Below, piece after piece: positions 148-43,786 of a DNA stretch of 64,000 nucleotides; the stretch's first letter is position 1, and every line of letters starts with the position of its first letter. The DNA is taken from positions 37,777-101,776 of the forward strand of contig NZ_JAFBAR010000104.1 of NCBI RefSeq assembly GCF_019247635.1, read 5' to 3'. The notes under the pieces were generated by a model. That model worked only from the letters and a program-made list of their open reading frames with translations, made no database searches and was not told the origin of the DNA. The stretch comes from Mycobacterium sp. Its GTDB lineage: Bacteria; Actinomycetota; Actinomycetes; Mycobacteriales; Mycobacteriaceae. Made by a program: the position numbers and the translations under genes.

Positions 148-206
148 GCGAGCAGCCGCAAAAGCACCCATTTCCTGCCGAAATAAGTGCTTTTGCGTCT
201 GCTCGC
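148..206. repeat. Palindromic hairpin element, copy 1 (59 bp), between convergent xerC and the M23 peptidase gene
   Basis: GCGAGCAGCCGCAAAAGCAC(148-167) ... GTGCTTTTGCGTCTGCTCGC(187-206). The 20-nt arms are inverted repeats with one mismatch, and the centre (ATTTC..GAAAT) is also self-complementary. The same arms occur at 21273, 34879 and 35122. Confidence 0.85.
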
Positions 207-3978: not shown

Positions 3979-3993
3979 ACCCGGTTTGACATA

Positions 3994-4026
3994 CCTCCCC
4001 GCGCCACGGCCCGTGGCGCGGGGAGG
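3994..4026 (+). terminator. Perfect GC-rich hairpin downstream of the MPT63-like gene
   Basis: CCTCCCCGCGCCAC ggccc GTGGCGCGGGGAGG gives a 14-bp perfect stem, 16 nt after the stop. There is no U-tract, which is common for mycobacterial terminators. Confidence 0.5.
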
Positions 4027-4066
4027 TGCACGCTTGGGGACGACCGTAGCGGGGTATGCAACGGCC

Positions 4067-20341: not shown

Positions 20342-21199
20342 ATGCCTGTTCGTACCGCGCTTTCTCCCGGCGTGCTGTCTTCGACGCTGCCGGTGCCCAG
20401 CCTCATCCCGCGTCCGGAATACGTCGGGAAGTCAACGGCGCAGGAGGGCACCGAGCCGTGGGTGCAGACGCCCGAGGTGATTGAGAAGATGCGCGTCGCC
20501 GGCCGAATCGCCGCGGGCGCGCTAGCCGAGGCGGGCAAGGCCGTCGCACCCGGCGTCACCACCGACGAACTCGACCGGATCGCGCACCACTACATGGTCG
20601 ACCATGGCGCCTACCCGTCGACCCTGGGCTACAAGGGTTACCCGAAGTCGTGCTGCACGTCGCTCAACGAGGTCATCTGCCACGGCATACCGGACTCGAC
20701 GGTGATCGCCGACGGCGACATCGTCAACATCGACGTCACCGCCTACATCGACGGGGTGCACGGCGACACCAATGCGACGTATCTGGCCGGCGATGTCTCC
20801 GAGGAGCACCGGCTGCTCGTCGAGCGGACCCGTGAGGCGACGATGCGGGCAATCAACGCCGTCAAACCGGGCCGCGCCCTGTCGGTTATTGGCCGCGTCA
20901 TCGAATCGTATGCAAACCGGTTCGGATACAACGTGGTTCGCGACTTTACCGGCCACGGCATCGGCACCACGTTCCACAACGGCCTGGTTGTGCTGCACTA
21001 CGACCAGCCGTCCGTGGCGACCGTCCTGCAGCCGGGAATGACGTTCACCATCGAACCGATGATCAACCTCGGTTCGCTGGACTACGAGATCTGGGACGAC
21101 GGCTGGACCGTGGTCACCAGAGACCGCAAGTGGACCGCGCAGTTCGAGCACACGCTGCTGGTCACCGATTCCGGCGTCGAGATCCTGACATTGCCGTGA
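20342..21199 (+). CDS. map: Type I methionine aminopeptidase
   Basis: The metal-ligand context CHGIPD, NIDVT, GHGIG, TIEPM and QFEHT is present. The proline-rich N-terminal extension is typical of the actinobacterial MapB type. Confidence 0.95.
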
Positions 21200-21272: not shown

Positions 21273-21332
21273 GCGAGCAGACGCAAAAGCACCATTTTCG
21301 GCCCGAAAATGGGGGCTTTTGCGTCTGCTCGC
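21273..21332. repeat. Palindromic hairpin element, copy 2 (60 bp), in the map-cobQ intergenic region
   Basis: GCGAGCAGACGCAAAAGCACC ATTTTCGG C CCGAAAAT GGGGGCTTTTGCGTCTGCTCGC. The arms and the centre are both self-complementary. Confidence 0.9.
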
Positions 21333-21341
21333 CGTAGCAGG

Positions 21342-22853
21342 GTGAGCGGCGCGCTGCTGGTCGCGGGCACCAGCTCAGACGCGGGGAAGTCCGTGGTGGT
21401 GGCCGGGCTGTGCCGGTTGCTGGCATGCCGCGGTGTGCGGGTCGCACCGTTTAAGGCGCAGAACATGTCCAACAATTCGATGGTCACCGTCGAGGGCGGG
21501 GAGATCGGGCGAGCGCAGGCGATCCAGGCCCGGGCGGCGGGCCTGGAACCCAGCGTGCGGTTCAACCCCGTCCTGCTCAAACCGGGCAGTGACCGGACCT
21601 CGCAGCTGGTGATCCGTGGGCACGTCGCCGAATCGGTCACCGCGGCCGGCTACCACCAGCATCGGGATCGGCTCGCGGGCATCGTCAACACCGAATTGTC
21701 TTGTCTGCGTAAGGAATTCGATGCGGTGATCTGCGAGGGCGCTGGTTCGCCGGCCGAGATCAACTTGCGGGCGACGGATCTGGCCAACATGGGACTGGCC
21801 AGGGCGGGCAACCTGCCGGTAGTCCTGGTCGGCGACATCGACCGCGGCGGCCTGCTGGCTCACCTGTTCGGGACGGTCGCGGTGCTCGAACCCGACGACC
21901 AAGCGTTGATCGCGGGCTTCATCGTGAACAAATTCCGCGGCGACCCCACCCTGCTGCAACCGGGCCTAAAGCAACTGCAAGCCATGACCGGTCGACCGAC
22001 GTACGGCGTGCTGCCCTACTCCGACCAGCTCTGGCTGGACGCCGAGGACTCGCTGTCGGTGATCGCGCACCGCGTCGTCGGAACGCCGGCGCCACCGCGC
22101 GGCGACCAGTGGTTGCGCGTGGCCGCGGTCCGGCTGCCCCGGATCTCCAACTCCACCGATGTCGAGGCGCTGGCCTGCGAACCGGGTGTGCTGGTGCGCT
22201 GGATCACCGAAGCCGCCGATCTGGCCGACACCGACCTGATCGTGATCCCGGGCAGCAAGTCTACCGTCGCCGACCTGACCTGGCTTCGCGAGCGTGGGCT
22301 GGCGGATGGGATCGTCGAGCACGCGCGGGCGGGCAAGCCGGTCCTGGGTCTGTGCGGGGGGTTCCAGATGCTCTGCGAACGCATCGAGGACGCCGTCGAG
22401 TCCGGGGCCGGGACGGTCGAGGGGCTGGGGCTGTTCGACGCCGATGTCGTGTTCGCCGCGGACAAGGTGTTGCGCCGCTGGCAGCTGCCGTTGAGCGGGT
22501 ACGAAATCCATCACGGCCGCCTGGCGCGCAGCGCCGATGCGGCGTGGTTCGAGGTCGATTCTGAGGCCGGGCCGCAGGGAATAGTTCGCGGCCCGGTTTT
22601 CGGCACCCATTGGCACGGCCTGCTCGACAACGACGATTTCCGCCGCGCCTGGCTCGCCGAGGCGGCGAAGGCGGCCCACAGGACCGGATTCGTCGTCGCC
22701 GACGATGTGAGCGTGTCGGCGCGCCGCGACGCGCAACTGGATCTGATCGCCGATTTGCTAGCGGCCCATCTCGACATCGACGCGCTCAGCGGCCTGCTGA
22801 GCGGCGGACCGCCGCGGCGACCGTATGTCGTAAGCACTTTGCGCCAGGGTTGA
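21342..22853 (+). CDS. cobQ: Cobyric acid synthase
   Basis: [25 protein letters not shown] is a CobQ/CobB P-loop-like N-terminus. The C-terminal GATase domain has GLCGGFQML (nucleophile Cys) and GYEIHHG. I prefer the GTG at 21342, because the tracked ATG at 21309 lies inside the hairpin element. Confidence 0.88.
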
Positions 22854-29729: not shown

Positions 29730-30866
29730 CTAGCCCCGCCCGGAAGACCCCACCAGCTTGGCCGCCTCGCGGTGCATGCGGCCGAAGTTGTAATAGGCCG
29801 CACACGCCCCCTCGGGCGACACCATGCACGTCCCGATCGGGGTCTCCGGGGTGCAAGCCGTCCCGAAAACCTTGCATTCCCAAGGCTTGAGCACGCCCTT
29901 GAGCACCTCACCGCATTGGCAGGCCTTTGGGTCGGCGACCCGCACCCCTGGCAGCGCGAATCGCAGTTCGGCGTCGAACTCCGCGAAGTCGTCGTGCAGA
30001 CGCAACGCGCTCTGCGAAATGAAGCCCAGTCCACGCCATTCGAAGTGCGGGCGCAACGCGAACACCTTGCCCATCAGCGCCAAGGCCGCGGGGTTGCCCT
30101 GTTCGGGTACGACGCGCTTGTATTGGTTCTCCACCTCGCAGCGGCCTTCGCGGATCTGACGCAGCAGCATCGCGACCGAGGCCAGGATATCCAGCGGCTC
30201 GAAACCCGCCACCACCAATGGTTTTCGGTACACCTCCGGCACGAAGCGGTAGGGCCGGTTGCCCACCACGGTCGAGACGTGCCCGGGACCGATGAAGCCG
30301 GACAGGCGCAGGTCCGGCGACTCGAGGATGGCCTTGATCGGCGGCACGATCGTGACGTGGTTGCAGAACACACTGAAGTTGGGCAGCCCCAGATCCCTTG
30401 CCCGCACCAATGTCACGGCGGTCGACGGGGCGGTGGTCTCGAATCCGATGGCGAAGAACACCACCTGGCGATCCGGGTTGTCCGTGGCGATCTTCAGCGC
30501 GTCCAGCGGGGAGTAGACGAACCGCACGTCGGCGCCGCGCGCCTTTGCGTCCAGCAGGCTGCCGGACGAACCCGGCACGCGCATCATGTCGCCGAAGCAG
30601 GTGAAGATCACGCCCGGTTGGCTCGCCAGCCACATCGCGTCGTCGACGCGTCCCATTGGGATCACGCACACCGGACAGCCGGGGCCGTGCACGAGTTCGA
30701 CGTTGTCCGGCAACAGGTGTTCGATGCCGTGGCGGTAAATCGTGTGGGTGTGTCCGCCGCACACCTCCATGAACTTGAAATGGTCACCCTCGCCGGCCAA
30801 GTGCTCGATGGCGCCGAGCAGCTTGCGCGCCGCGGCCGGATCACGGAATTCTTCAACGAATTTCAT
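29730..30866 (-). CDS. hypD: Hydrogenase maturation protein HypD
   Basis: MKFVEEFRD, CGGHTH, GPGCPVCV and FETTAP are HypD signature motifs. Confidence 0.95.
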   Translation of the reverse strand: MKFVEEFRDPAAARKLLGAIEHLAGEGDHFKFMEVCGGHTHTIYRHGIEHLLPDNVELVHGPGCPVCVIPMGRVDDAMWLASQPGVIFTCFGDMMRVPGSSGSLLDAKARGADVRFVYSPLDALKIATDNPDRQVVFFAIGFETTAPSTAVTLVRARDLGLPNFSVFCNHVTIVPPIKAILESPDLRLSGFIGPGHVSTVVGNRPYRFVPEVYRKPLVVAGFEPLDILASVAMLLRQIREGRCEVENQYKRVVPEQGNPAALALMGKVFALRPHFEWRGLGFISQSALRLHDDFAEFDAELRFALPGVRVADPKACQCGEVLKGVLKPWECKVFGTACTPETPIGTCMVSPEGACAAYYNFGRMHREAAKLVGSSGRG

Positions 30867-30875
30867 TGCGGTTCC

Positions 30876-31148
30876 TCACACAATCGCCGACGAGTCGAAG
30901 GCTGCTATTTCGGTGGCATACGCATCACCGAGCTTCTTGATGGCCGCCAGCGTGAGCAACGCTTCGGTTTCGTCGATCTTGGCCATCGCGAAGCCGACGT
31001 GGACCAACACCCAGTCGTCGGGCTCGGGCATGTCGTTTTCCAGTAGGCGCACGCTGATGGTCCGCCGCACCCCGCTGACGTCGACCTTCGCCAGATAGTT
31101 TGCCGGGTCCGTGATCTCGACGATCCGGCCCGGAATGCCCAGGCACAT
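30876..31148 (-). CDS. hypC: HypC/HybG/HupF-family hydrogenase chaperone (paralogue 2, 90 aa)
   Basis: ATG at 31148 is preceded by GAAGGAGAAG. The N-terminal MCLGIPG carries the essential Cys2, and DWVLVHVGFA is present. Confidence 0.9.
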   Translation of the reverse strand: MCLGIPGRIVEITDPANYLAKVDVSGVRRTISVRLLENDMPEPDDWVLVHVGFAMAKIDETEALLTLAAIKKLGDAYATEIAAFDSSAIV

Positions 31149-31161
31149 GAGCTTCTCCTTC

Positions 31162-32274
31162 CTAACAGATCCGGGGCAGCGGATCGCCGACGAGCATGTC
31201 GACGATGCGGGTCCCGCCGAATCCGGTACGTAGCACGACGCTTTCGGCCGGCTCGGTGACGATCTCCCCAACTTCGGCGGCGTCGGCGCCCAACGGATGT
31301 GACCGCACCGCGGCCAGCCCCGCGTCGGCTTCCTCGGGCGCGACGACCGCCACGAATTTGCCCTCGTTGGCCACATACAACGGGTCGATACCGAGCAGCT
31401 CGCACGCGCCGTTGACCATGGGCCGCACCGGAAGTCGATCCTCGAAGAGCAGGACCCCGAGGCCGCAGGCCTGAGCCAGTTCGTTGCAGACCGTGCCCAC
31501 CCCGCCCCGGGTCGCGTCGCGCAGCCAACGGGTGGATGGCGCGGCCGCCATCAGGATTTCTACCAGCGGGCTCACCGACGCGGTGTCCGAATCGATGTCG
31601 GCCTCGATGGCAAGATCACCCCGGGCGAGCATGACGGCCATCCCGTGATCGCCCATGGTGCCGGACAGCAGTACCTTGTCCCCGGTGCGCACGGATTCGG
31701 CCGACAACCGCCGGCCCGCGGGTATGACGCCCGCGCCCGTGGTGGTGATGAACAATCCGTCGGCCGCGCCCCTGGGCACCACCTTGGTGTCGCCCGTGAC
31801 GATCTGCACGCCGGCCTTAGCGGCCGCGGTCGCCATGTCGGCGACGATCTCCTTCAGCTCGGCGATGGGGAAGCCTTCTTCGAGGACGAACGCCGCCGAG
31901 ATCCAGGACGGCACCGCGCCCGTCATCGCCAGGTCGTTGCACGTTCCGTGCACGGCGAGTTCCCCGATCGAGCCCCCGGGAAAACGCCTGGGCTGCACCA
32001 CAAATGAGTCGGTGGACATCGCGATCCGTTCGCCGCCCGGCAGGGTGAGCACCGCGCCGTCGCCGAGCGACTCCAGTTGTGGATTGCGGAACGCCTCCAG
32101 GAACACCGCATCGACCAGCGCGGCCGAGGCCTTGCCGCCCGCTCCGTGGGCGAGGGTGACATGGTCGTCCAGCAACCGAGGGCGCCGCCGGCGGAACGAC
32201 TCGATGCGCTCGATTACCTGACCCTCGCCGAAACGTGGCCCTGAGGAGAGGTATCCGTCTGCTGACTTGCTCAT
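31162..32274 (-). CDS. hypE: Hydrogenase maturation protein HypE (carbamoyl dehydratase)
   Basis: ATG at 32274 forms an ATGA overlap with the upstream stop. The AIR-synthase-like fold is indicated by LAHGAGG, and the C-terminal PRIC motif is present. Confidence 0.93.
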   Translation of the reverse strand: MSKSADGYLSSGPRFGEGQVIERIESFRRRRPRLLDDHVTLAHGAGGKASAALVDAVFLEAFRNPQLESLGDGAVLTLPGGERIAMSTDSFVVQPRRFPGGSIGELAVHGTCNDLAMTGAVPSWISAAFVLEEGFPIAELKEIVADMATAAAKAGVQIVTGDTKVVPRGAADGLFITTTGAGVIPAGRRLSAESVRTGDKVLLSGTMGDHGMAVMLARGDLAIEADIDSDTASVSPLVEILMAAAPSTRWLRDATRGGVGTVCNELAQACGLGVLLFEDRLPVRPMVNGACELLGIDPLYVANEGKFVAVVAPEEADAGLAAVRSHPLGADAAEVGEIVTEPAESVVLRTGFGGTRIVDMLVGDPLPRIC

Positions 32275-32939
32275 GCGGCCCCCATACCTCGCTCGCCGAG
32301 GTGCTCGTGCGTAGCCAACCACAGCCGATAACCCACCAGGGCTTGCGCTTCCTGGATCCGATGCACGCTTTGCGAGCGAACGACGAAGCAGGCGTCCACA
32401 TTCGGGTTGTCTACGAACGCGCCCCCGTCGTAGCCGGCAAAGCCGACCGTGTAGAGGCCGCGTCGCCGCGCCTCGGCCAGCGCCGTCAGCAGGTTGGGCG
32501 AGTTGCCACTGGTCGACATCGCGATGGCAATGTCCCCTTCTTTGGCGCGCGCGATCAACTGCCGGGCGAACACCAGCTCGAACCCGACGTCGTTGCCCAG
32601 CGCGGTGAGGATCGCCTGGTCGGCCGTCAGCGACCAGGCGGGTAAAGGCTTGCCAATCGGTGGCCGGGCGAACAGTCCCGCCAAGGTGGTGGAATCGGTG
32701 CTGCTGCCGCCATTTCCGAACGTGAACAGCCGTCCGCCGGCCGCGAAGCGGTGCGCCAGCTCGGCGCCGGCCGTCTGCAGCCGTTGGGCGTTGGCGTCCA
32801 GGGTGGAGCGGCGCAGCGCCAGGCTTTCGGCCGCCTTCGCCTGCGCGGACGCGGCCAAGTCGGCGAGCAGCGATTCAGCGTCGTCTTCCCGAGCGTCGAT
32901 GAACGGGTACAGGAAGTCGGTGGGCTCTTGCTGCGTCAC
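32271..32939 (-). CDS. SIS-domain (GmhA/phosphoheptose-isomerase-like) protein
   Basis: GTG at 32939 forms a GTGA overlap. FGNGGSSTDS, LGNDVGFE, AMSTSGNSPN and HRIQEAQ match the GmhA-type SIS pattern. Confidence 0.8.
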   Translation of the reverse strand: MTQQEPTDFLYPFIDAREDDAESLLADLAASAQAKAAESLALRRSTLDANAQRLQTAGAELAHRFAAGGRLFTFGNGGSSTDSTTLAGLFARPPIGKPLPAWSLTADQAILTALGNDVGFELVFARQLIARAKEGDIAIAMSTSGNSPNLLTALAEARRRGLYTVGFAGYDGGAFVDNPNVDACFVVRSQSVHRIQEAQALVGYRLWLATHEHLGERGMGAA

Positions 32940-33712
32940 TCGTCCTCCTCGACAACTCGGCTCGATGGCGCCGCTCCTGCGATCCCGGCGATGCCGGGAT
33001 CTTCGTCGTCGACGCGTGCGAGCGCCGTTCCGGCATGCACCAGCACCAGATCGCCGGACTTGACCGGCTCGATCAGCGTCGTCACCACGTTCTCGATGCC
33101 CCGTGCGGTCCGTATGGGGGCCAACCCGTCGACCGCGGGTGTCATCACCTCGCCCAGACGGCCCTCGTCGCTGCAGGTGACGCACACGGGTTCGGCACAT
33201 TCGGGTTTCAGCAACCCCGCGTGCTCGAAACAAACGTGCGTCAGCTCCCACAACAAGTGGTAGAACAACACGAAGCCACCGGTTGCTGGCACCTGCGGAT
33301 CTGGGTCGTCGAGCCACAGAACGTGTTCTGCCGCACCTGCTTTGGGGCGCTCGCCGCTGCCGATCCAGATCGTGGTGGCGCCCCAGGCCGGGCTGCGGCG
33401 CAGCACCGAGCGCACCTCGGGCTGGTCCGCCCCGGACACGGCGACGACAATGTCACCGGGCCGCACCGACACTCGTGCCAGATCCACCAGATCGGGCCCG
33501 GTAAGCGCAACCGCCGGCAGCGCCCGTTTGCCCATGATCACCGGATGCACGAACTCGACCGCGATGTGCAGCGCGTGCGGCTCCAACGACGGCGCGATGG
33601 ACCACATGGTGGCGCCCGCTGCGAATCGCCGAGCCAATGTGAAAGCAGCCGCGGCCAGGTCGGCCACCAGCTCGGCGCTCAATCCGCGATCGATCGCGTT
33701 CGCGGTGCTCAC
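32936..33712 (-). CDS. Fusion protein: degenerate SIS-like N-domain plus HypC/HupF-like C-domain
   Basis: GTG at 33712 forms a GTGA overlap with the hypF stop. The N-terminal part ([32 protein letters not shown]) is SIS-like but lacks the SGNS motif. The C-terminal part ([13 protein letters not shown]...[17 protein letters not shown]) resembles the HypC OB-fold. Confidence 0.6.
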
Positions 33713-36198
33713 GAATGCTCCTCTTCGCATGCCCGCAGCATGGAGATGGCAGCCTGACCCAGCGCCAGACCGCCGTCGTTGGGTGGAACCACACAGTGGG
33801 TCAACACCTCGAACCCGGCCAACTGCAACCGCTTACGGCACGCTCGCAACAGCAGCACGTTCTGGAACACGCCACCGGTGAGCCCCACCAATCGCACCGA
33901 CCCGGCCACCTCGCTGACCACGTCGGCCACGGCTTGCGCGACCGCGTGATGGAAACCCGCCGCCAGCGCCGCCGGCTGCGCCCCGGCACGCAGCGCCGAG
34001 ACCACCGAGCGCACGACGGGCGACGGATCGATCACCCCGTCGGGGCGCACCGTGAAACTCAATGGCTCGGCAACGCGGGCCGATTCGGCCAGCACCTCGA
34101 GTTCAATAGCGGCCTGGCCTTCGTAGTCGATGCGGTGCCGAACTCCCAGTAGGGAAGCCAGCGCGTCGAACAGCCGCCCCATGCTCGAGCACGGGACGCA
34201 TCGTGCACCGCTGTCCAATTGCGAACGGACAAGCCGCAATTCCGCGGGTGTCACCGCCGCAACCGGCGCCAGGTCCGCCGACCAGTCGATGCCGGCCATC
34301 CAGAGTTGCGACAGCGCCATCCGCCACGGATTGCGCACCGCGGTGTCGCCTCCGGGCAGTGGCACCGGCAGCAGGTGGCCGGCGCGGACAAAGCGATGAC
34401 TATCGCGGCCCAGGGTGAGAACCTCGCCGCCCCAGATCGTCCCGTCGCAGCCGTAACCCGTCCCGTCGAAGGCGACGCCGACGATGGGTTCGCAGAGGCG
34501 CCCGTGCTCGGCCAGCAGCGATACCACATGCGCGTGGTGGTGCTGGACCAGATCCAGGGGGCGATCGCCGACATGGCGCTCCGCCCAGCCGCGGATGTGA
34601 TACCCCGGGTGCAGGTCGGCGGCCAATCGAACTGGTGTGCCGCGTATTTCGGTGAGCTGGCGCACGGCCTGTTCGAAGGCGCGCAGCGTTTCCCAGCTGC
34701 CCATGTCGCCGATGTGCCCCGACGTGTAGGCGCGCGAGCCGTCGGTGAGGCAGAAGGTGTTCTTCAGCTCGCCGCCCACGGCAAGCACAGCGGGGCCCGG
34801 CCGCGTGAGCTCGATCGGCAGCGGCGCATATCCGCGCGACCGGCGGACCGGTAAGGTGGCGCGGACCGGCACGGTGGCGCGAGCAGACGCAAAAGCACCC
34901 GACACGCCGTGCGTGCGGGTGCTTTTGCGTCTGCTCGCGGAATCAAAGTCGACCACGCGTACCACCGAGTCGTCACAGGGCACGTGGATGGGACGGTCAT
35001 GATCGAGGACCGCATCGCACAGCGCCGAAAGGCGTTCTGCCGCATCCTCGCTGGTAAAGCAAATGGGCTCGTCGGACCGGTTGGCGCTGGTCAGCACCAG
35101 CGCGTCGGGAACGTCGACGGCGCGAGCAGACGCGAAAGCACCCGACACGCCGTGCGTGCGGGTGCTTTCGCGTCTGCTCGCGGCCGTATCGGAGACGCGC
35201 GCCAGCAGCAGGTGATGGACGGGGGAGTAGGGCAGCATGAGCCCCAGCAGCGGGCTGCCCGGCGCGACGGCGTCGGCGACGGGCGCGTCCGGGCGTCGGC
35301 GCAGCAACACGATCGGCCGGGCCGGGTCGGACAGCACCGCGGCCTCGGTGTCGTCCAGATACGCGAAGCGGCGCGCCACATCGAGGTCGCGGACGAGCAC
35401 CGCGAACGGCTTGGCACCGCGCGCCTTTCGGGCCCGCAGCGCGCGAACCGCCGCTTCGTCGGCGACGGCACACGCCAGGTGGTACCCGCCGATCCCCTTG
35501 ATCGCGACGACGGACCCGGCCGTCAACGCTTGTTGGGCTGCGGCCAGCGCAGGATCGGATCCGGTGATCCGCCCGGCCGCCGACCGGAACCACAGCGACG
35601 GTCCGCAGTCCGGACAGGCGATCGGCTGGGCGTGGAACCGGCGGTCGGCCGGATCGTGGTATTCGGCGGCGCACCGCTCACACATGGCGAAGCCGGACAT
35701 GGTGGTGGCGGGACGGTCGTAAGGCAACGCGCGGATGATGGTGAAGCGCGGCCCACAGTTGGTGCACGTCACGAACGGGTGGCGGTAACGGCGGTCGTGG
35801 GGGTCGAACAACTCGGCGACGCAGGCGTCGCACACCGCTATGTCCGGGGGAATGGGTGTTGCGACCCCGGCGACGGCCTCACTGGCGACGATCCGGAACT
35901 CACCCTCATGCACGGTCGGGACATCGACGATGCGCACGCGGCTTATCCGCGCCAGCGGTGGGGCCTCGCCCCGCAGGCGATGCCCGAATTCCTCGACGCG
36001 TGCACCGTCCCCCTGGACCTCGAGAAAGACTGCGCCGGAATCGTTCCCGACGAACCCGGTCAAGCCCAACTCGCTGGCCATACGGTGGATGAACGGGCGA
36101 AACCCAACTCCCTGCACGACACCGGTCACCGTGAAACGCTGCCGAACGTCGTCGGACCGCACGGGCGGGGGGCTGGACTGGGTTATCTCAACGGTCAT
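33709..36198 (-). CDS. hypF: Carbamoyltransferase HypF, carrying two 20-codon in-frame repeat insertions
   Basis: An acylphosphatase domain (VQGVGFRPF) is present. There are two zinc-finger pairs ([12 protein letters not shown] and CERC..CPDCGP). YrdC-like and Kae1-like blocks are present ([26 protein letters not shown]). The 829-aa length includes the two insertions. Confidence 0.93.
34879..34938. repeat. Palindromic hairpin element, copy 3 (60 bp), inside hypF codons ~421-440
   Basis: GCGAGCAGACGCAAAAGCACCC GACACGCCGTGCGTG CGGGTGCTTTTGCGTCTGCTCGC. It is read through in frame as [20 protein letters not shown]. Confidence 0.92.
35122..35181. repeat. Palindromic hairpin element, copy 4 (60 bp), inside hypF codons ~340-359
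   Basis: It is identical to copy 3 except for A>G in the left arm and the paired T>C in the right arm. It is read through as [20 protein letters not shown] and lies 243 bp (81 codons) from copy 3. Confidence 0.92.
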
Positions 36199-36199
36199 C

Positions 36200-36454
36200 T
36201 CAACCGTCTCCCGGATCCATGCGGCCCCGGCCCATTAGCTCCAGGCCGGCCAGCGCCTGCTCGGCCCCGTCCCGGTCGGTCTTCTCGACAACGAAACCCA
36301 TGTGGATGATCACCCAGTCGCCGGGTTCGAACGTCTCGTCCGGCAGCATGCCTACGTTGACCCTGCGCGGCTCGCCGGTGACCTCGACCAGAGCCAATTG
36401 CCCTTCGTAACCCTCCAGCATCCGGATCACTTGACCGGGTATGCCCAGGCACAT
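36200..36454 (-). CDS. hypC: HypC/HybG/HupF-family hydrogenase chaperone (paralogue 1, 84 aa)
   Basis: MCLGIPGQV and [10 protein letters not shown] are present. The stop lies 1 nt before the hypF ATG. Confidence 0.9.
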
Positions 36455-36457
36455 GAT

Positions 36458-36943
36458 TCAGCACTCCTCGCGCGCCGGAGCCTGCAACGCGGTGACGATC
36501 TCCTCGACCGCGCGCACGGCCCGGGGGATGGCGTTGGCGACGGGTTCGGTGAGACCGATGCCCTCCTCGACGCTTTTCGCCTCGCATCCGACGACGACCG
36601 TGTAGGGCGGGGTGCCGCCCAGCGCCCGCAGGCTGGCGAACACAGTTGCCGGGTCCATGCTGTGACCGTCCAGATCGGTTGTGCCAGAGTCTGATTCGTG
36701 ATCGGCTTGAAAGACATGCAAGGCGCCCGGGCTGCCGCGACTGGGTATCGCGTCGACGAGCACCAGCGTGTCCCAGCCATCGAGCAGATCGTAGGCCAGG
36801 TGCATGCCTCGGATGCCATAGTCGGTGACGCGCACACTCGAATCGTCCTGCGGGATCTCGGCGTGCCGGACCACCTCGGAGCCAAATCCGTCGTCCCCGA
36901 GGAAGATATTGCCGATCCCGGCCACCAAGATGCGAGCTGTCAT
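36458..36943 (-). CDS. Hydrogenase large-subunit C-terminal maturation endopeptidase (HybD/HupD family)
   Basis: I chose ATG at 36943. VAGIGNIFLGDDGFG is the GxGNxxxxDDGxG motif. LVLVDA is present, and HSMDP carries the metal-binding His. Confidence 0.88.
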   Translation of the reverse strand: MTARILVAGIGNIFLGDDGFGSEVVRHAEIPQDDSSVRVTDYGIRGMHLAYDLLDGWDTLVLVDAIPSRGSPGALHVFQADHESDSGTTDLDGHSMDPATVFASLRALGGTPPYTVVVGCEAKSVEEGIGLTEPVANAIPRAVRAVEEIVTALQAPAREEC

Positions 36944-36959
36944 GGCCCTGCCCGGCGGA

Positions 36960-37079
36960 CTACATCCGTCGGAGCTTGAGGTAGCGGCGCGCATCCGGCA
37001 GGGAAGCGACTCCCATCAGCACCGCTGCCCCGAGGACCAACGCGACGATGCCGATGAATATCCAACCTAAGATATCCAT
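36960..37079 (-). CDS. Small single-TM protein (39 aa), hypothetical
   Basis: ATG at 37079 is preceded by a strong GAAGGAG. MDILGWIFIGIVALVLGAAVLMGVASLPDARRYLKLRRM is one hydrophobic helix with a basic tail. It overlaps the upstream gene end by 13 nt. The rest of the tracked 258-aa ORF is rejected. Confidence 0.45.
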   Translation of the reverse strand: MDILGWIFIGIVALVLGAAVLMGVASLPDARRYLKLRRM

Positions 37080-38404
37080 GTCGAACTCCTTCCAGGTGTT
37101 TGTTGAGTTTCCAGCGGTTCGATCTCGTCGGGGGAGAAGTAGAGATACCGGCCGTACCAGTCGTGCAACTCCGCGGCCGGGTCGTCGTCGACTACCACCG
37201 CGACGTGTTTGTTGCCCTCGACGTCTTCGTGAACCGAGGTGACCTTGGCGGTCTTGCCCGCGACGAAGATGTCCTGCGCATCGGCGTTGCGTCTCGGGCG
37301 CAGCCGGACCCGGCTGCCGCGGGCCACCGCGGTTCCGTTGACCAGCACCGCGTCGATCTCGGGGCGAACCGCGTTGTCGGCCAGCGGATCCCACCAGTCG
37401 AGCCCCTCGGGGATCTCCGGGACCAAGCCCGCAACGCCGTGCGGATCGCGCAGCACGCCGTGCAACCGCGCCATGTCGTCGGGCGACATCGCATCGCACC
37501 GGTCGATGATTCGGGCAGCCCGGGGGTCGGTGGCCCGCGCCTGCGCCTTCTCTTCGTCGGTCATCGTCATCACACGTAGCGTCAGGATCTCGTCGATCTC
37601 GGTGCAGTCGTACAGGGCGGTGTTGCTCTGTTCGGCCACCTCGGGATGGTCGTACAGGATGATCGGCGACACCAGCAGGATGTCCCGGGTCCCCGGCGGC
37701 CCGGCCAGCACCGGGAAGCAGCGGTGCTGGCTGCACCGGGATGCCGCACCGACGGCGCCGTCCCCCGGCTCGAGCAGCGAGACGAACTGTCCCCCAACCA
37801 CTTCAGCGATGAGATGCGCCCCGATCATGGACCGGGCAATCGCGTCCTGCTTGTCGGATGCCTCGGCCCCCACGTTGGCAAGCCGCACCGAAACGCGCCA
37901 TAGGTCGCCGTCCGGTTCGCTGGAGACCCTCAGCTCGCCACGGACCTCCTGGCGTTCGCGCACCAGACGACCACCGTCCAGGCGTTCGATGTCGGTCGAT
38001 GTGGCCGCCGCAACCGGCATCGTGTGGGGCGTGTCGAATGCCAGGGGACCGAAAGACATTTCACATTCGACGGCCTCGTCCCAGGTCAGCCACGAGCCGG
38101 ACGGGGTTTTCAGTTCGTCGACGACTTCGAAGCCGCCACCGGATGATTCGCGTTCGGCCCGGCGGTGCTGCAGCTGCAGAAACCGCACCACCACGGTGAG
38201 CGCCCGGGCACCGTCGACCAAGAACTCGGCCCCCAGGGAGTCGTCTTCGCCCAGGCCGGCCGCGGCTGCCCCGGGCGGCCCTAAAACGCCGAATTGCCAA
38301 CGGGATTGGTTCTTGCTCGACGTCCCGCGGTAGGGGTACAGCAGGTACCCTTCGTACAACACCGCGTCGGCGACGGCACGGGCACGGTCCCAGGTCGACG
38401 TCAT
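37067..38404 (-). CDS. Conserved hypothetical protein (445 aa), hydrogenase-cluster associated, no recognisable domain
   Basis: The long ORF has a non-repetitive composition. Its ATG forms an ATGA overlap with the upstream gene. I recognise no motif. Confidence 0.7.
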   Translation of the reverse strand: MTSTWDRARAVADAVLYEGYLLYPYRGTSSKNQSRWQFGVLGPPGAAAAGLGEDDSLGAEFLVDGARALTVVVRFLQLQHRRAERESSGGGFEVVDELKTPSGSWLTWDEAVECEMSFGPLAFDTPHTMPVAAATSTDIERLDGGRLVRERQEVRGELRVSSEPDGDLWRVSVRLANVGAEASDKQDAIARSMIGAHLIAEVVGGQFVSLLEPGDGAVGAASRCSQHRCFPVLAGPPGTRDILLVSPIILYDHPEVAEQSNTALYDCTEIDEILTLRVMTMTDEEKAQARATDPRAARIIDRCDAMSPDDMARLHGVLRDPHGVAGLVPEIPEGLDWWDPLADNAVRPEIDAVLVNGTAVARGSRVRLRPRRNADAQDIFVAGKTAKVTSVHEDVEGNKHVAVVVDDDPAAELHDWYGRYLYFSPDEIEPLETQQTPGRSSTWIS

Positions 38405-39060
38405 TGCGCCGGCTCCCGCTGGGACGCTTCGGACAGCAGCGCGCCGACGGCATGGTCGAGGTCGAGCAGCCCACGCGCCGACTTGTAATCGGCCAGCGCG
38501 GCGATGGTTTCGTGGCTCAGCCGCACCCAGCCGGAGTTCGGATAGTGCTGGGCGATCAGGTCGCGCCAGACCGCGACGGGCATGTTGTAGCGGTCCTCGC
38601 AGTCCCAGGACACCTGTTGGACGGAGAACCCGCGTTCGGACTTCACGAAGATCGTGCCACTGAACAGGAATTGCAGCGGCAGCACGCCGTCGCGCAGCGC
38701 ATGCAGGTACTTAGCGGCCGCGACTTCGAAATCGTAGGTGCAGTCGAGGGGCAACGCGACCGTGGTGTTGCCGGCGAATCCCGGGACCATCGCGGTGCAG
38801 TGCTGCCACAGAAAGGTGCGTTGGGTGCTCGCCCACCGTTCCCGCGGGCCGAACAGGTCGGCCAGGCCGATGGCCTCGTCGTCGGTGTAGGAACGGCGCA
38901 GCGGTTCGATGCGGACCTGGCAGCGCAGCGCGATGGCGTGCACCGGGTCCTCCCCGTCGGTGGCGACGCGTACCCGAGCGGTCAGGACCGGGCTGACGGC
39001 GTAGGGTTCGGGCGCCACGTCCACTACGGCGAAGCGCACCTCCATCGGCTGCTCGCTCAT
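38401..39060 (-). CDS. Conserved hypothetical protein (219 aa; I recall the label DUF6084 for this position in Hhy clusters)
   Basis: It has ATGA overlaps at both ends. There are no catalytic motifs I can name. Confidence 0.7.
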   Translation of the reverse strand: MSEQPMEVRFAVVDVAPEPYAVSPVLTARVRVATDGEDPVHAIALRCQVRIEPLRRSYTDDEAIGLADLFGPRERWASTQRTFLWQHCTAMVPGFAGNTTVALPLDCTYDFEVAAAKYLHALRDGVLPLQFLFSGTIFVKSERGFSVQQVSWDCEDRYNMPVAVWRDLIAQHYPNSGWVRLSHETIAALADYKSARGLLDLDHAVGALLSEASQREPAQ

Positions 39061-39683
39061 CCGCGTGTCTCCGTGGCACGAGTCGCGAGTTGGGAAAAGA
39101 AGCCGTCAATGAACTGCCGCGCCTCCTGACCACCGTCGAAGCCGCGCCACAGCATGCGCAACCGCCCGACGAACTCGTAGCAGGCGTCGATCGGTACCAG
39201 ATAGGTTTGCGGATCACCGGTTTCAGGCATTCGGACCAGCAGCGCCTCGACGTCATCGGCCAGCAGCCCAACGCGGGGGTCGGCGCCGCCGATCGCGTGC
39301 CATGCGTCGAGGTCCAGCTCGGACTCGGTCGCGCCCGCCGGACCGGGGTAGAAGGCGACCGTGCGCTTCAGCTCGGAGTTGGTGAAGAAGAACGCCACGC
39401 CGACGGGGATCTGGAGTGCCTCCCAGGCGCGGCGATCCAACGCGAAGTCAGGGAATGCCAGATACCGGTCGGGCACCGCCCGGTAGCGCAGCTGCGCGTT
39501 GGTGTCGGTGAACAGGAGATAGCATGCGCGGCACACGCACATCAGTTGCCGGCCAGCCACATTCACGACGTGCTGATGCTCGTCCGCGATCGCCTCCGCG
39601 CACATCTCACACCGCTCCCCGGCGGGCTCCGGGGAGCGCGGGTTGCTGGTGATCCGGGCCAGCACGTCGTAAGGACTCGTCAC
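39057..39683 (-). CDS. Conserved hypothetical Cys-rich protein (208 aa; I recall the label DUF5947)
   Basis: GTG at 39683 forms a GTGA overlap with the NifU-like stop. CEMCAEAI...LMCVCRAC gives two CxxC pairs near the N-terminus, suggesting a metal site. Confidence 0.7.
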   Translation of the reverse strand: MTSPYDVLARITSNPRSPEPAGERCEMCAEAIADEHQHVVNVAGRQLMCVCRACYLLFTDTNAQLRYRAVPDRYLAFPDFALDRRAWEALQIPVGVAFFFTNSELKRTVAFYPGPAGATESELDLDAWHAIGGADPRVGLLADDVEALLVRMPETGDPQTYLVPIDACYEFVGRLRMLWRGFDGGQEARQFIDGFFSQLATRATETRG

Positions 39684-43529: not shown

Positions 43530-43786
43530 GCTGCAGCTTTCCGGGGACGGGCTGATGACCCCTACACCGCCGGAGTCGATCGTCGGCCCGCTTGCGCGGC
43601 GCTGTTTTCAGGCCTACTCCCGCCATTTGGAGTTGTCAACGGTTCGCCGCCGGCGGTCTAGTAGACAGGTGTTGCACAGTGGGTTGCCCTCGGCCTAATG
43701 ACGTTGTCCCGCAGAGCATTTAGATCATCAGCAGCTGTGTCTGCGCCGAGGTCGGATCGGGCTGTCCGCAATGATGATTTGTTGTA

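What the first reader, a model, noticed from the sequence alone, without database searches (positions are those of the whole stretch)
34879..35181. Two in-frame copies of a dispersed 60-bp palindromic element inside the hypF coding sequence
Seen in sequence:
- 34879-34938 and 35122-35181 are near-identical 60-bp units: GCGAGCAGACGC(A/G)AAAGCACCC-GACACGCCGTGCGTG-CGGGTGCTTT(T/C)GCGTCTGCTCGC.
- The outer ~22 nt are perfect inverted repeats and the centre is also largely self-complementary, so each unit can fold into one long hairpin.
- Each unit is exactly 20 codons and begins on a codon boundary. The two are 243 bp (81 codons) apart.
- The 829-aa HypF ORF reads straight through both, adding ASRR(E/K)[15 protein letters not shown] twice.
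- The insertions fall between conserved HypF blocks: HHLLLARV | insert | [13 protein letters not shown], and DDSVVRVV.. | insert | ..RRSRGYAP.
- The same arms occur in intergenic DNA at 148-206 and 21273-21332, so this is a dispersed element and not HypF-specific sequence.

Established analogy: Rickettsia palindromic elements (RPEs) insert in frame into protein genes. I do not recognise this sequence as MIRU or any other named mycobacterial repeat.

Inference: this is a mobile or recombinogenic hairpin element tolerated in surface loops of HypF. At the RNA level it could act as an internal pause, terminator or RNase site that modulates hydrogenase maturation.
Basis: partly seen in the sequence, partly recalled or inferred. 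Interest (0 to 1): 0.85.

Follow-up and report, generated by a model that had tools for sequence, protein, structure and literature searches.

The report
Terminator-type hairpin repeats inside hypF
Two copies of a 60-bp hairpin repeat that mycobacteria normally carry just after stop codons (very probably the known 'TRIT' terminator motif) sit in frame inside the hydrogenase-maturation gene hypF, adding two 20-residue loops; their stems are still kept paired by compensating mutations, an unusual context for a known repeat family rather than a new kind of element.

Summary
Window 34879-34938 and 35122-35181 are two 60-bp perfect-stem palindromes, in frame in an intact 829-aa hypF (minus strand). 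Two more copies lie outside genes, at 148-206 and 21273-21332. The unit belongs to a sharply bounded repeat family found across Mycobacteriaceae. About 88% of 232 sampled copies are exactly 60 bp, and about 80% lie 1-20 nt after a stop codon. The same arm flanks M. tuberculosis sahH, relA and tuf. This fits the published 'TRIT' terminator motif, though I could not compare directly with its consensus. Coding copies are rare: 0 of about 228 sampled copies elsewhere, plus one found separately in pcaG. Copy A occurs only in this lineage (1 of 120 HypF representatives) and is closest to copy B. Copy B sits at the same linker in 7 of 120 HypFs, spread over six lineages, with the loop flipped in two. 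Both inserts fall at breaks in the alignment to HypF crystal structures. An independent assembly (7 differences in 8,490 nt) carries both inserts, so they are not an artefact. It also preserves an intermediate of a compensatory series in copy A (A-T, then A·C, then G-C, the last step changing Lys to Glu). Arms are 96% identical across species, against 61.5% at flanking third-codon positions. Function within hypF is untested.

The parts
35122..35181 (-). Copy A: a 60-bp palindromic element in frame in hypF (codons 340-359, [20 protein letters not shown]). It is specific to this lineage.
   Evidence: 79 bits. Absent from 119 of 120 HypF representatives. DNA alignment shows a clean net insertion of 63 nt. 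Its nearest relative among all sampled copies is copy B, at 2 differences that form one compensated pair. Also present in the independent assembly L128.
34879..34938 (-). Copy B: a 60-bp palindromic element in frame in hypF (codons 421-440, [20 protein letters not shown]), in the connector between the YrdC-like and Kae1-like domains.
   Evidence: 80.6 bits. The same site is filled in 7 of 120 HypF representatives. The alignments to 3VTH and 4G9I break here.
33709..36198 (-). hypF coding sequence (829 aa, carbamoyltransferase HypF), intact and full length despite both inserts.
   Evidence: ORF. (full-length homologues with the five HypF Pfam domains). (E = 6.5e-172 to PDB 3VTH). Operon neighbours are hycI and hypC-like genes (L128 annotation).
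35169..35169 (-). Arm position 13 of copy A on the gene strand: G in the window, A in strain L128. This is the compensating substitution (AAA to GAA, K344E).
   Evidence: one of only 7 differences in 8,490 aligned nt; the only amino-acid difference in 829 residues..
35134..35134 (-). Arm position 48 of copy A on the gene strand: C in both strains, T in copy B. A synonymous TTT to TTC change; it is the pairing partner of 35169.
148..206 (.). Extragenic family copy (59 bp), 9 nt beyond the stop codon of a minus-strand M23 peptidase gene (216-710).
   Evidence: 60.5 bits, although it was not in the training alignment.
21273..21332 (.). Extragenic family copy (60 bp) between map (M24 peptidase, 20342-21199, plus strand) and a CobQ/CobB-like gene. 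It overlaps that ORF's first ATG at 21309.
   Evidence: 73 bits.
34846..34878 (-). Imperfect tandem duplication with an 18-nt period, directly next to copy B (gene strand: [11 protein letters not shown]). It shows how prone this linker is to insertions and deletions.
   Evidence: Read. Compared with orthologues.

Best explanation
What it is. The two units are genuine copies of a discrete 60-bp palindromic repeat family found across Mycobacteriaceae. It is very probably the 'TRIT' (Tuberculosis Rho-independent terminator) motif. The family's normal position is the first 20 nt or so after a stop codon, often between convergent genes. There the transcript folds into a long hairpin whose inner part (AAAAGCCCCC-loop-GGGGGCUUUU) looks like a bidirectional intrinsic terminator or 3'-end hairpin.

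How it came to be in hypF. In this lineage the unit has been copied into hypF twice. The gene survives for two reasons. The unit is 20 codons long (net +21 codons at site A), and its arms contain no stop codon in any frame. Both copies also landed at permissive connector positions: a short turn in the YrdC-like domain, and the YrdC-to-Kae1 linker, which is already an indel hotspot. The element is therefore translated as an extra peptide, ASRR(K/E)[15 protein letters not shown]. Copy B is older, or recurs at this site: it is at the same position in seven HypF lineages. Copy A is recent and was most likely copied from copy B.

What keeps it. The peptides are most likely tolerated passengers. The hairpin itself is actively maintained at the nucleic-acid level, either by selection on an RNA or DNA structure or by arm-to-arm templated correction. 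That maintenance overrides the amino-acid sequence.

Shown and inferred. Shown: family membership, insertion polymorphism, insert positions, maintenance of the stem. Inferred: the direction of copying (B to A), that the peptides are neutral, and what maintains the stem.
For: Family and boundaries
- 232 full copies came from two independent collection scans. 205 are exactly 60 bp.
- Conservation falls to background within 2 nt of the unit's ends.
- Across 98 copies, 92.9% of stem cells are paired, against 36-50% in slid controls. There are 57 double-sided changes against 19.6 in shuffles, reached by 0 of 500 shuffles.

Position
- 81 of 105 and 100 of 127 copies lie just after a coding stop codon.
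- Candidate read-through cases turned out to be spurious ORFs.

Link to TRIT
- The published description (palindromic, sequence-conserved, restricted to Mycobacterium, 147 copies, at gene ends) matches.
- The arm is at the 3' ends of M. tuberculosis sahH, relA and tuf, and upstream of pks3.
- TRIT is associated with defined mRNA 3' ends.

Insertion polymorphism
- Shown by protein and DNA alignments.

Permissive sites
- Alignments to 3VTH and 4G9I break exactly at both inserts.
- The site-B linker varies from 9 to 17 aa even without the element.

Open frames
- 88% of frame and strand readings of the 60-mers have no stop codon.

Copy A derived from copy B
- B is A's nearest neighbour at 2 differences; the next nearest copies differ at 4.

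Not an artefact
- The independent assembly L128 carries both inserts.

Active maintenance of the stem
- The series A-T (copy B), A·C (copy A in L128), G-C (copy A in the window) is completed by 1 of only 7 differences in 8,490 nt. The chance of that is about 3e-4.
- Arms are 96% identical, and arm third-codon positions 97.6%, against 61.5% at flanking third positions.
- 6 of 8 arm substitutions in hypF copies form compensated pairs, and each pair includes a non-synonymous change.

Second gene
- pcaG carries a perfect in-frame copy in two independent assemblies.
Against: - I could not compare with the published TRIT consensus, because the figure and model are not held. The RNIE paper places TRIT starts around -8 relative to the stop codon, whereas my 60-mers start 1-16 nt after it.
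- No mechanism of spread was identified. There is no target-site duplication, no target motif, and no copy in plasmids or phages.
- Nucleotide-level conservation inside the ORF could equally mean the hairpins have a function in hyp expression, so 'passenger' may be wrong.
- Filled site-B alleles are scattered over six lineages with no excess flank similarity. A single old insertion therefore needs many clean losses.
- Surface exposure was not shown by a structure: the AlphaFold model had mean pLDDT 47.5.
- No expression or proteomic data were available.
Confidence: 0.8

Rival explanations
1. The in-ORF hairpins have been co-opted as regulators of the hyp operon. In the mRNA, the 28-bp duplexes would act as an internal attenuator or pause site, an RNase III-type cleavage site, or a barrier to 3'-to-5' exonucleases. 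Any of these would set different levels for the upstream genes (hycI, hypC, the 5' part of hypF) and the downstream genes (hypC-like, SIS-domain, hypE, hypD). This is why the stem is conserved.
For: - Nucleotide-level constraint inside the ORF: arms 96% and arm third positions 97.6% identical, against 61.5% at flanking third positions.
- A compensatory substitution that costs an amino-acid change.
- Extremely stable hairpins on the gene strand.
- TRIT is associated with defined mRNA 3' ends in M. tuberculosis.
- REP hairpins are known to set differential mRNA stability within operons (general knowledge; Delihas review).
Against: - Most HypF orthologues lack both inserts, so any such role is dispensable and lineage-specific.
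- The full hairpin has no trailing U-tract, and the consensus terminator scan does not call it.
- TRIT predictions overlap only 2-4% of mapped termination sites in M. tuberculosis.
- Stem maintenance can also be explained mechanistically, without any function.
- No expression data were available.
Confidence: 0.22
2. The stem is kept paired by a mutational mechanism, not by selection. When the palindrome extrudes as a hairpin or cruciform, or during template switching at replication, one arm serves as template to correct the other. Alternatively the copy is converted from other genomic copies. On this view the hypF copies are neutral DNA that simply cannot decay.
For: - Compensated pairs arise quickly: one within a strain pair that differs at only 7 of 8,490 nt.
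- The correction ignores the protein: K to E, A to T, S to I and A to D.
- The loop flips in place. P0004's element is the exact reverse complement of the window's copy B, with the same left junction. That implies arm-to-arm interactions in DNA.
- Slippage duplications lie right next to the element.
Against: - Single unpaired changes persist (P0005 position 11, and L128 position 48).
- The outer-arm sequence, not just its pairing, is nearly invariant across genera. Arm-to-arm correction alone does not explain that. It needs conversion from other copies, or selection for a sequence-specific partner.
Confidence: 0.35
3. Site B is an insertion hotspot that the element has entered independently several times, in both orientations. 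It is not one old insertion followed by losses and loop inversion.
For: - Filled alleles fall in six separate lineages of the HypF tree, each with empty-site nearest neighbours.
- There is no excess flank similarity among filled alleles.
- Junctions differ between groups: VVSG| and VVYS| versus xFxx|.
- Both loop orientations occur.
- Out-of-frame TGA or TAG triplets lie 4-8 nt upstream in 5 of 7 alleles, the same spacing as real stop codons at extragenic copies.
Against: - Five filled alleles share the xFxx| left junction, which also occurs in some empty alleles (P0009, P0054). That points to common descent of the junction.
- Flipped and unflipped elements share junctions (P0004 with the window, P0105 with P0006).
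- The tree is a neighbour-joining tree without support values.
- No target motif was found across the family.
Confidence: 0.3
4. The element is a classical MITE mobilised in trans by a DDE transposase.
For: It is short, dispersed, has inverted-repeat ends, and shows presence/absence polymorphism.
Against: - No target-site duplication of 1-5 nt at any boundary offset above chance.
- The whole unit is one hairpin rather than terminal inverted repeats around a core.
- Its fixed 60-bp length and position next to stop codons are not typical of MITEs.
- No copies in plasmids or phages.
Confidence: 0.05
5. The 20-aa blocks are ancestral or functional HypF protein sequence, or an assembly artefact.
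For: None beyond the open reading frame.
Against: - 113 to 119 of 120 orthologues lack them.
- Where present, they keep perfect nucleotide palindromy and match extragenic copies.
- An independent assembly carries both.
Confidence: 0.02

Closest known systems
TRIT (Tuberculosis Rho-independent terminator) motif, Gardner et al. 2011, NAR 39:5845 (PMC3152330)
   Same: A palindromic hairpin conserved in both sequence and structure. Many copies per genome, restricted to mycobacteria, tightly associated with stop codons and gene ends, and mostly bidirectional. The same arm sequence is at M. tuberculosis gene 3' ends.
   Different: TRIT was described as an extragenic or stop-codon-overlapping terminator. 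In-frame internal coding copies, insertion polymorphism, loop inversion and compensatory maintenance inside an ORF are not described in the papers I could read. The reported offset from the stop codon (about -8) differs from what I measured. The consensus could not be compared directly.
Rickettsia palindromic elements (RPE), Ogata et al. 2000
   Same: Palindromic repeats inserted in frame into protein genes, adding peptide segments at permissive positions without destroying the protein (general knowledge; listed in PMC3184786).
   Different: The sequence is unrelated, RPEs are longer (about 105-146 bp), and they occur in a different phylum. In-gene copies are a well-known feature of the RPE family, whereas here 0 of about 228 sampled copies outside hypF are in frame. 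RPEs are not terminator-like and are not tied to stop codons.
SPRITE (Streptococcus pneumoniae Rho-independent-terminator-like element), with BOX and RUP; Croucher et al. 2011
   Same: A dispersed small repeat that looks like an intrinsic terminator. Small repeats of this class are sometimes fused in frame within genes or extend their 3' ends (PMC3184786).
   Different: The sequence is unrelated, the size differs (about 105 bp) and the host is a Firmicute. I did not examine SPRITE sequences here.
REP/BIME elements of Enterobacteria and Pseudomonas
   Same: Extragenic GC-rich palindromes downstream of genes that form mRNA 3' hairpins. They have no target-site duplication and show stem covariation.
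   Different: REPs are about 35 nt, imperfect, and often clustered as BIMEs. They are linked to RAYT (Y1 HUH) transposases, and no such association was tested or seen here. The unit here is a single, strictly 60-bp, near-perfect hairpin.
MIRU (mycobacterial interspersed repetitive units)
   Same: A small dispersed repeat in mycobacterial operons that is translated or transcribed through.
   Different: MIRUs are 40-100 bp direct tandem units, not palindromes, and the sequence is unrelated.

Membership tests
TRIT (Gardner et al. 2011) | Palindromic hairpin with strong conservation of both sequence and structure | tested here: met
   98-copy alignment: outer arm nearly invariant, 92.9% of stem cells paired, covariation above all 500 shuffles. 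Hairpin energies of -37 to -58 kcal/mol with z below -8.
TRIT (Gardner et al. 2011) | Closely associated with the ends of genes, with a narrow distribution of distance to the stop codon | tested here: met
   81 of 105 and 100 of 127 copies lie just after a coding stop, with the stop's first base mostly 4-19 nt upstream. The two hypF copies themselves do not meet this feature. The published offset (about -8) differs from mine.
TRIT (Gardner et al. 2011) | Restricted to Mycobacterium in the broad sense, with many copies per genome | tested here: met
   Full two-arm elements were found only in Mycobacterium, Mycolicibacter, Mycolicibacterium and unclassified Actinomycetota MAGs. Loci from other phyla had single-arm matches only.
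TRIT (Gardner et al. 2011) | Present in M. tuberculosis at gene 3' ends | tested here: met
   Published M. tuberculosis primers and probes for the sahH 3' end, relA 3' end, tuf 3' hairpin and the region upstream of pks3 contain the arm TTTTGCGTCTGCTCG.
TRIT (Gardner et al. 2011) | Match to the published TRIT covariance model or sequence logo | not testable with these tools
   The figure and supplement are not held. There is no TRIT family in Rfam 15.
TRIT (Gardner et al. 2011) | Acts as a transcription terminator | not testable with these tools
   Literature only: TRIT is associated with defined 3' ends of a subset of mRNAs, but overlaps only 2-4% of Term-seq termination sites. The hypF copies lack a U-tract after the full stem.
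Rickettsia palindromic elements (RPE) | Sequence homology to RPE families in Rickettsia | tested here: not met
   The scans recovered full copies only from Mycobacteriaceae and related Actinomycetota, and the unit is 60 bp rather than about 105-146 bp. It behaves like an RPE in hypF and pcaG but is not a member.
Rickettsia palindromic elements (RPE) | In-frame insertion in protein genes as a recurrent habit of the family | tested here: not met
   0 of about 228 sampled copies outside hypF are in-frame coding insertions. The only coding cases found are hypF (two sites) and pcaG.
MITE (DDE-transposase-dependent) | Target-site duplication flanking the element | tested here: not met
   Direct repeats of 1-5 nt at boundary offsets from -2 to +2 are no more frequent than with shuffled partners, across 112 copies.
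REP/RAYT system | Association with a REP-associated tyrosine transposase (RAYT) gene flanked by the repeats | not tested
   No genome-wide search for RAYT or IS200-like genes was possible. None was noticed among the window ORFs I examined.
HypF carbamoyltransferase (host gene) | Full domain set (acylphosphatase, two zinc fingers, YrdC-like, Kae1-like) and an intact ORF | tested here: met
   Five HypF Pfam domains. E = 6.5e-172 to PDB 3VTH, covering residues 21-819 apart from the two inserts.

The most novel reading that the evidence does not exclude
TRIT is not only a terminator motif. It is a self-propagating 60-bp hairpin with its own maintenance mechanism. On this reading it can enter coding sequence at preferred sites (the HypF linker was hit independently several times). 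Its loop can invert in place. Its stem is restored within very short evolutionary times even when that changes the encoded protein. If so, a dedicated sequence-specific factor recognises the conserved outer arm, whether that is a nuclease or recombinase, or the dsRNA-binding factor that Gardner et al. suggested. The in-ORF copies would then be natural reporters of that factor's activity.
Probability: 0.25. Interest if true: 0.7.

Novelty: new variant of a known kind. Interest (0 to 1): 0.48.

Why it matters
TRIT is the only conserved terminator-like motif described in mycobacteria, and its role is disputed. It marks some mRNA 3' ends, yet it overlaps few mapped termination sites, and nobody has explained why its sequence is so conserved.

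- **The family behaves like a copied unit.** Presence/absence polymorphism with sharp 60-bp ends shows this is more than a locally evolved terminator.
- **Copies inside an essential-domain gene are a natural experiment.** Here the needs of the protein and of the hairpin can be separated. In hypF the hairpin wins: arms are 96-98% conserved against 61.5% at neighbouring synonymous sites, and a Lys-to-Glu change restores a base pair.
- **It is directly testable.** One can ask what reads the hairpin (RNA polymerase with NusG, RNase III, a DNA-repair nuclease) and whether translation through a hairpin of about -57 kcal/mol affects HypF and hydrogenase maturation.
- **Practical consequences.** Annotators should expect TRIT-derived peptides as C-terminal tails and, rarely, as internal loops. 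Mycobacterial protein alignments may contain 20-aa 'ASRRKS...AFASAR' inserts of non-protein origin.

Tried and rejected
- **Structure prediction of the window HypF** (16-sequence alignment): mean pLDDT 47.5, unusable. I relied on sequence alignment to PDB 3VTH and 4G9I instead.
- **Rfam**: no family at gathering thresholds, only sub-threshold matches to generic long hairpins.
- **RNIE supplement** for the TRIT consensus: not held.
- **Literature searches** for the sequence and for TRIT: they gave M. tuberculosis primers and probes carrying the arm, but no paper describing mobility or in-frame copies. The library is limited to open-access papers.
- **22-aa peptide profile search**: The 186-aa composite query had low sensitivity and did not even recover the HypFs, but it did reveal pcaG and many C-terminal tails.
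- **Apparent read-through ORFs** in L005, L009, L058, L067, L070 and L081: rejected as spurious or start-side ORFs after inspection.
- **Target-site duplication and target motif**: none found.
- **Plasmid and phage collections**: no copy.
- **Recent lateral exchange of the site-B segment**: no excess flank similarity among filled alleles.
- **Looking up the window's own HypF on its source contig**: not on record, so the organism is known only as a Mycobacterium-like actinobacterium, with the best named HypF hits at 77-78% identity.
Full report
**1. The observation**

Window 34879-34938 and 35122-35181 are 60-bp units, 243 bp apart and identical at 58 of 60 positions. The arm GCGAGCAGACGCRAAAGCAC gives eight arm hits in the window, at four loci, where 0.02 are expected by chance. 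On the gene strand each hypF unit folds as RNA into a single hairpin of -56.2 or -58.0 kcal/mol, with z-scores of -13.0 and -11.5.

hypF is the minus-strand ORF 33709-36198 (829 aa). Both units begin on codon boundaries, at codons 340 and 421. They are translated as [20 protein letters not shown] and [21 protein letters not shown] covariance model built from 98 family members finds exactly four copies in the window (56-81 bits). The next hit scores 14.5 bits.

**2. The blocks are insertions, not HypF sequence**

The 120 closest HypF cluster representatives are all from Mycobacterium or unnamed sources, at 73-78% identity. Among them, the site-A block occurs only in the window's protein. The site-B block occurs in seven.

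I aligned hypF DNA from nine orthologues. Site A is a clean net insertion of 63 nt. Site B holds an exact 60-mer at the same position in seven genomes and is empty in the rest.

Alignments to the HypF crystal structures 3VTH and 4G9I break precisely at the two inserts. Site A replaces a two-residue turn between chain residues 321 and 324 of 3VTH. Site B lies in the short connector between the YrdC-like and Kae1-like domains. The site-B linker varies from 9 to 17 residues even without the element, so it tolerates indels. My AlphaFold model was too poor to add anything (mean pLDDT 47.5).

**3. Not an artefact, and a substitution series caught in progress**

A second assembly from other source databases (L128, ENA ERZ27313880) aligns to window 30709-39198 without gaps, with seven differences in 8,490 nt. 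It carries both inserts.

The only amino-acid difference in the whole HypF is K344E, at arm position 13 of copy A. The states are:
- Copy B has A-T at this stem pair.
- Copy A in L128 has A·C. The partner changed T to C, a synonymous TTT to TTC.
- Copy A in the window has G-C.

Taking copy B as the reference, the pair was first broken by a silent change. It was then restored by a change that alters the protein. The chance that one of seven differences hits that exact position with the right base is about 3e-4.

**4. The family**

Full two-arm elements came only from Mycobacterium, Mycolicibacter, Mycolicibacterium and unclassified Actinomycetota MAGs. Loci from other phyla had single-arm matches only. 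A metagenome scan gave 127 more elements.

| Property | Result |
|---|---|
| Length | 205 of 232 copies exactly 60 bp |
| Boundaries | Conservation falls to background within 2 nt of the unit |
| Outer arm (18 nt) | Nearly invariant |
| Inner stem | Covaries: 92.9% of cells paired; 57 double-sided changes against 19.6 in shuffles (0 of 500 reach it); slid controls 36-50% |
| Central 16 nt | Two main types: an asymmetric GACACGCCG type found in either orientation, and an A/T-rich near-palindrome |
| Target-site duplication or target motif | None above chance |
| Plasmids and phages | No copy |

**5. Where the family normally sits**

Copies lying immediately after a coding stop codon number 81 of 105 in the first sample and 100 of 127 in the second. 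The stop's first base is mostly 4-19 nt upstream, and the copies are often between convergent genes. Every apparent read-through ORF outside hypF proved spurious on inspection. So none of about 228 sampled copies elsewhere is an in-frame coding insertion.

The window's other two copies fit the rule. The copy at 148-206 lies 9 nt beyond the stop of an M23 peptidase gene. The copy at 21273-21332 lies between map and a CobQ-like gene.

A composite peptide search found many proteins whose C-terminus runs into the element, including a TetR-family cluster of 663 sequences. It also found one further genuine internal insertion, in the alpha subunit of protocatechuate 3,4-dioxygenase (pcaG). That copy is a perfect 60-mer, sits on a codon boundary, uses the same reading frame as in hypF, and falls in a loop relative to PDB 1EO2. 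It is present in two independent assemblies.

**6. What it is called**

Gardner et al. (2011, PMC3152330) described TRIT. It is a previously unpublished, well-conserved palindromic motif with 147 copies in M. tuberculosis. It is mostly bidirectional, narrowly positioned at stop codons and restricted to Mycobacterium. Published M. tuberculosis primers and probes for the 3' ends of sahH, relA and tuf, and for the region upstream of pks3, contain the arm TTTTGCGTCTGCTCG. [quoted passage not shown]

I therefore identify the element as TRIT with about 85% confidence. Two caveats apply. The published logo or model was not available. The paper's offset from the stop codon (about -8) differs from mine.

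On function the literature is divided. A subset of mRNAs have defined 3' ends at TRITs. TRIT predictions overlap only 2-4% of Term-seq termination sites.

**7. History of the hypF copies**

Copy A's nearest relative among all sampled copies is copy B, at two differences that form one compensated pair; the next nearest differ at four. The two also share 2-3 flanking nucleotides on each side. A recent copy from B to A is therefore the simplest reading. This is an inference.

Site B is harder to read:
- On a neighbour-joining tree of 120 HypFs, the seven filled alleles fall in six lineages whose nearest neighbours are empty.
- Filled alleles share no excess similarity in their flanks.
- Five of them share an xFxx| left junction that also occurs in some empty alleles (P0009, P0054).

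Either one old insertion was lost cleanly many times, or this linker is a recurrent target. I cannot decide between these.

The loop is flipped in P0004 and P0105 relative to relatives that share their junctions. P0004's element is the exact reverse complement of the window's copy B apart from its own compensated pair. This argues that the loop inverted in place.

**8. Constraint**

Across the seven site-B alleles, the arms are 96% identical and their third-codon positions 97.6%. The flanking hypF DNA is 84% identical and its third positions 61.5%. Of eight arm substitutions in hypF copies, six form three compensated pairs, and each pair includes a non-synonymous change. The nucleic-acid hairpin, not the peptide, is what is being preserved.

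**9. How it most likely works**

*Shown.* A discrete 60-bp hairpin unit of a stop-codon-associated mycobacterial family has been copied into hypF at two permissive connectors. It remains translated, and its stem is actively maintained.

*Inferred.* The gene survives because the unit is a whole number of codons and its arms are open in all frames; 88% of frame and strand readings have no stop. The peptides are tolerated passengers.

*Open.* What maintains the stem is not resolved. It may be selection on an RNA or DNA structure: a pause site, an RNase III-type site, or a stabiliser within the hycI-hypC-hypF-...-hypE-hypD operon. Or it may be arm-to-arm templated correction or conversion from other copies. 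The full hairpin has no trailing U-tract and is not called by a consensus terminator scan. Translation through it should oppose folding. Strong termination inside hypF is therefore unlikely, though this was not tested.

**10. Comparison and verdict**

By membership this is TRIT. By behaviour the hypF and pcaG copies resemble Rickettsia RPEs. They also resemble the in-frame fusions reported for other small repeats, including the terminator-like SPRITE element (PMC3184786). It is not an RPE, a MIRU, or a classical MITE (no target-site duplication). A link to REP/RAYT systems was not tested.

The element is known. The coding context, the insertion polymorphism, the loop inversion and the compensatory series inside an ORF were not described in the papers I could search. 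I rate it a new variant of a known kind, of moderate interest.

Noticed in passing
window 43531-43603 (-): A full-length match to the Rfam hya RNA (RF02992), 81.7 bits against a gathering score of 56.8. It lies in the hydrogenase region of the window.
   Followed up: no
window 21273-21357: The extragenic copy overlaps the first ATG (21309) of a CobQ/CobB-like ORF (CbiA and GATase_3 domains). If that ATG is used, the protein would begin MGAFASAR..., encoded by the element's right arm. An in-frame GTG about 10 nt after the element is an alternative start.
   Followed up: partly
window 34846-34878; L119 about 1690-1715: Slippage-type tandem duplications lie right next to the site-B element. In the window it is an imperfect duplication with an 18-nt period ([11 protein letters not shown]). 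In P0002 it is a 12-nt duplication spanning the left junction that includes the element's first 5 nt.
   Followed up: partly
Site-B left junctions: window 34939-34947; L119, L120, L122, L124: Five of seven filled alleles have an out-of-frame TGA or TAG 4-8 nt upstream of the element (TGATTCC|, TGACTGC|, TGAGTGGC|, TAGC|). This is the same spacing as real stop codons at extragenic copies. It could be chance or a hint of target preference.
   Followed up: no
P0131, P0121, P0125, P0130, P0138, P0142: Many annotated mycobacterial proteins end inside the element, with a C-terminal tail ...REQTQKPP..GGFCVCSR. They include a TetR-family cluster of 663 sequences. All three internal coding copies use the other frame (ASRRKS...AFASAR).
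   Followed up: partly
L070:3343-3402: The first arm is mutated to ATGAGCAG, so the TGA stop of the upstream CobS-like gene lies inside the element. The convergent ilvE-like gene stops 4 nt beyond the other end.
   Followed up: partly
window 3993-4027: An unrelated perfect 17-nt inverted repeat with a 1-nt spacer (ACCTCCCCGCGCCACGG / CCGTGGCGCGGGGAGGT).
   Followed up: no
window 37067-38404 (-) and neighbours; L128:1-2240: The hydrogenase cluster upstream of hycI encodes a 445-aa protein with no Pfam match, next to DUF5947, DUF6084 and DUF6893 proteins.
   Followed up: no
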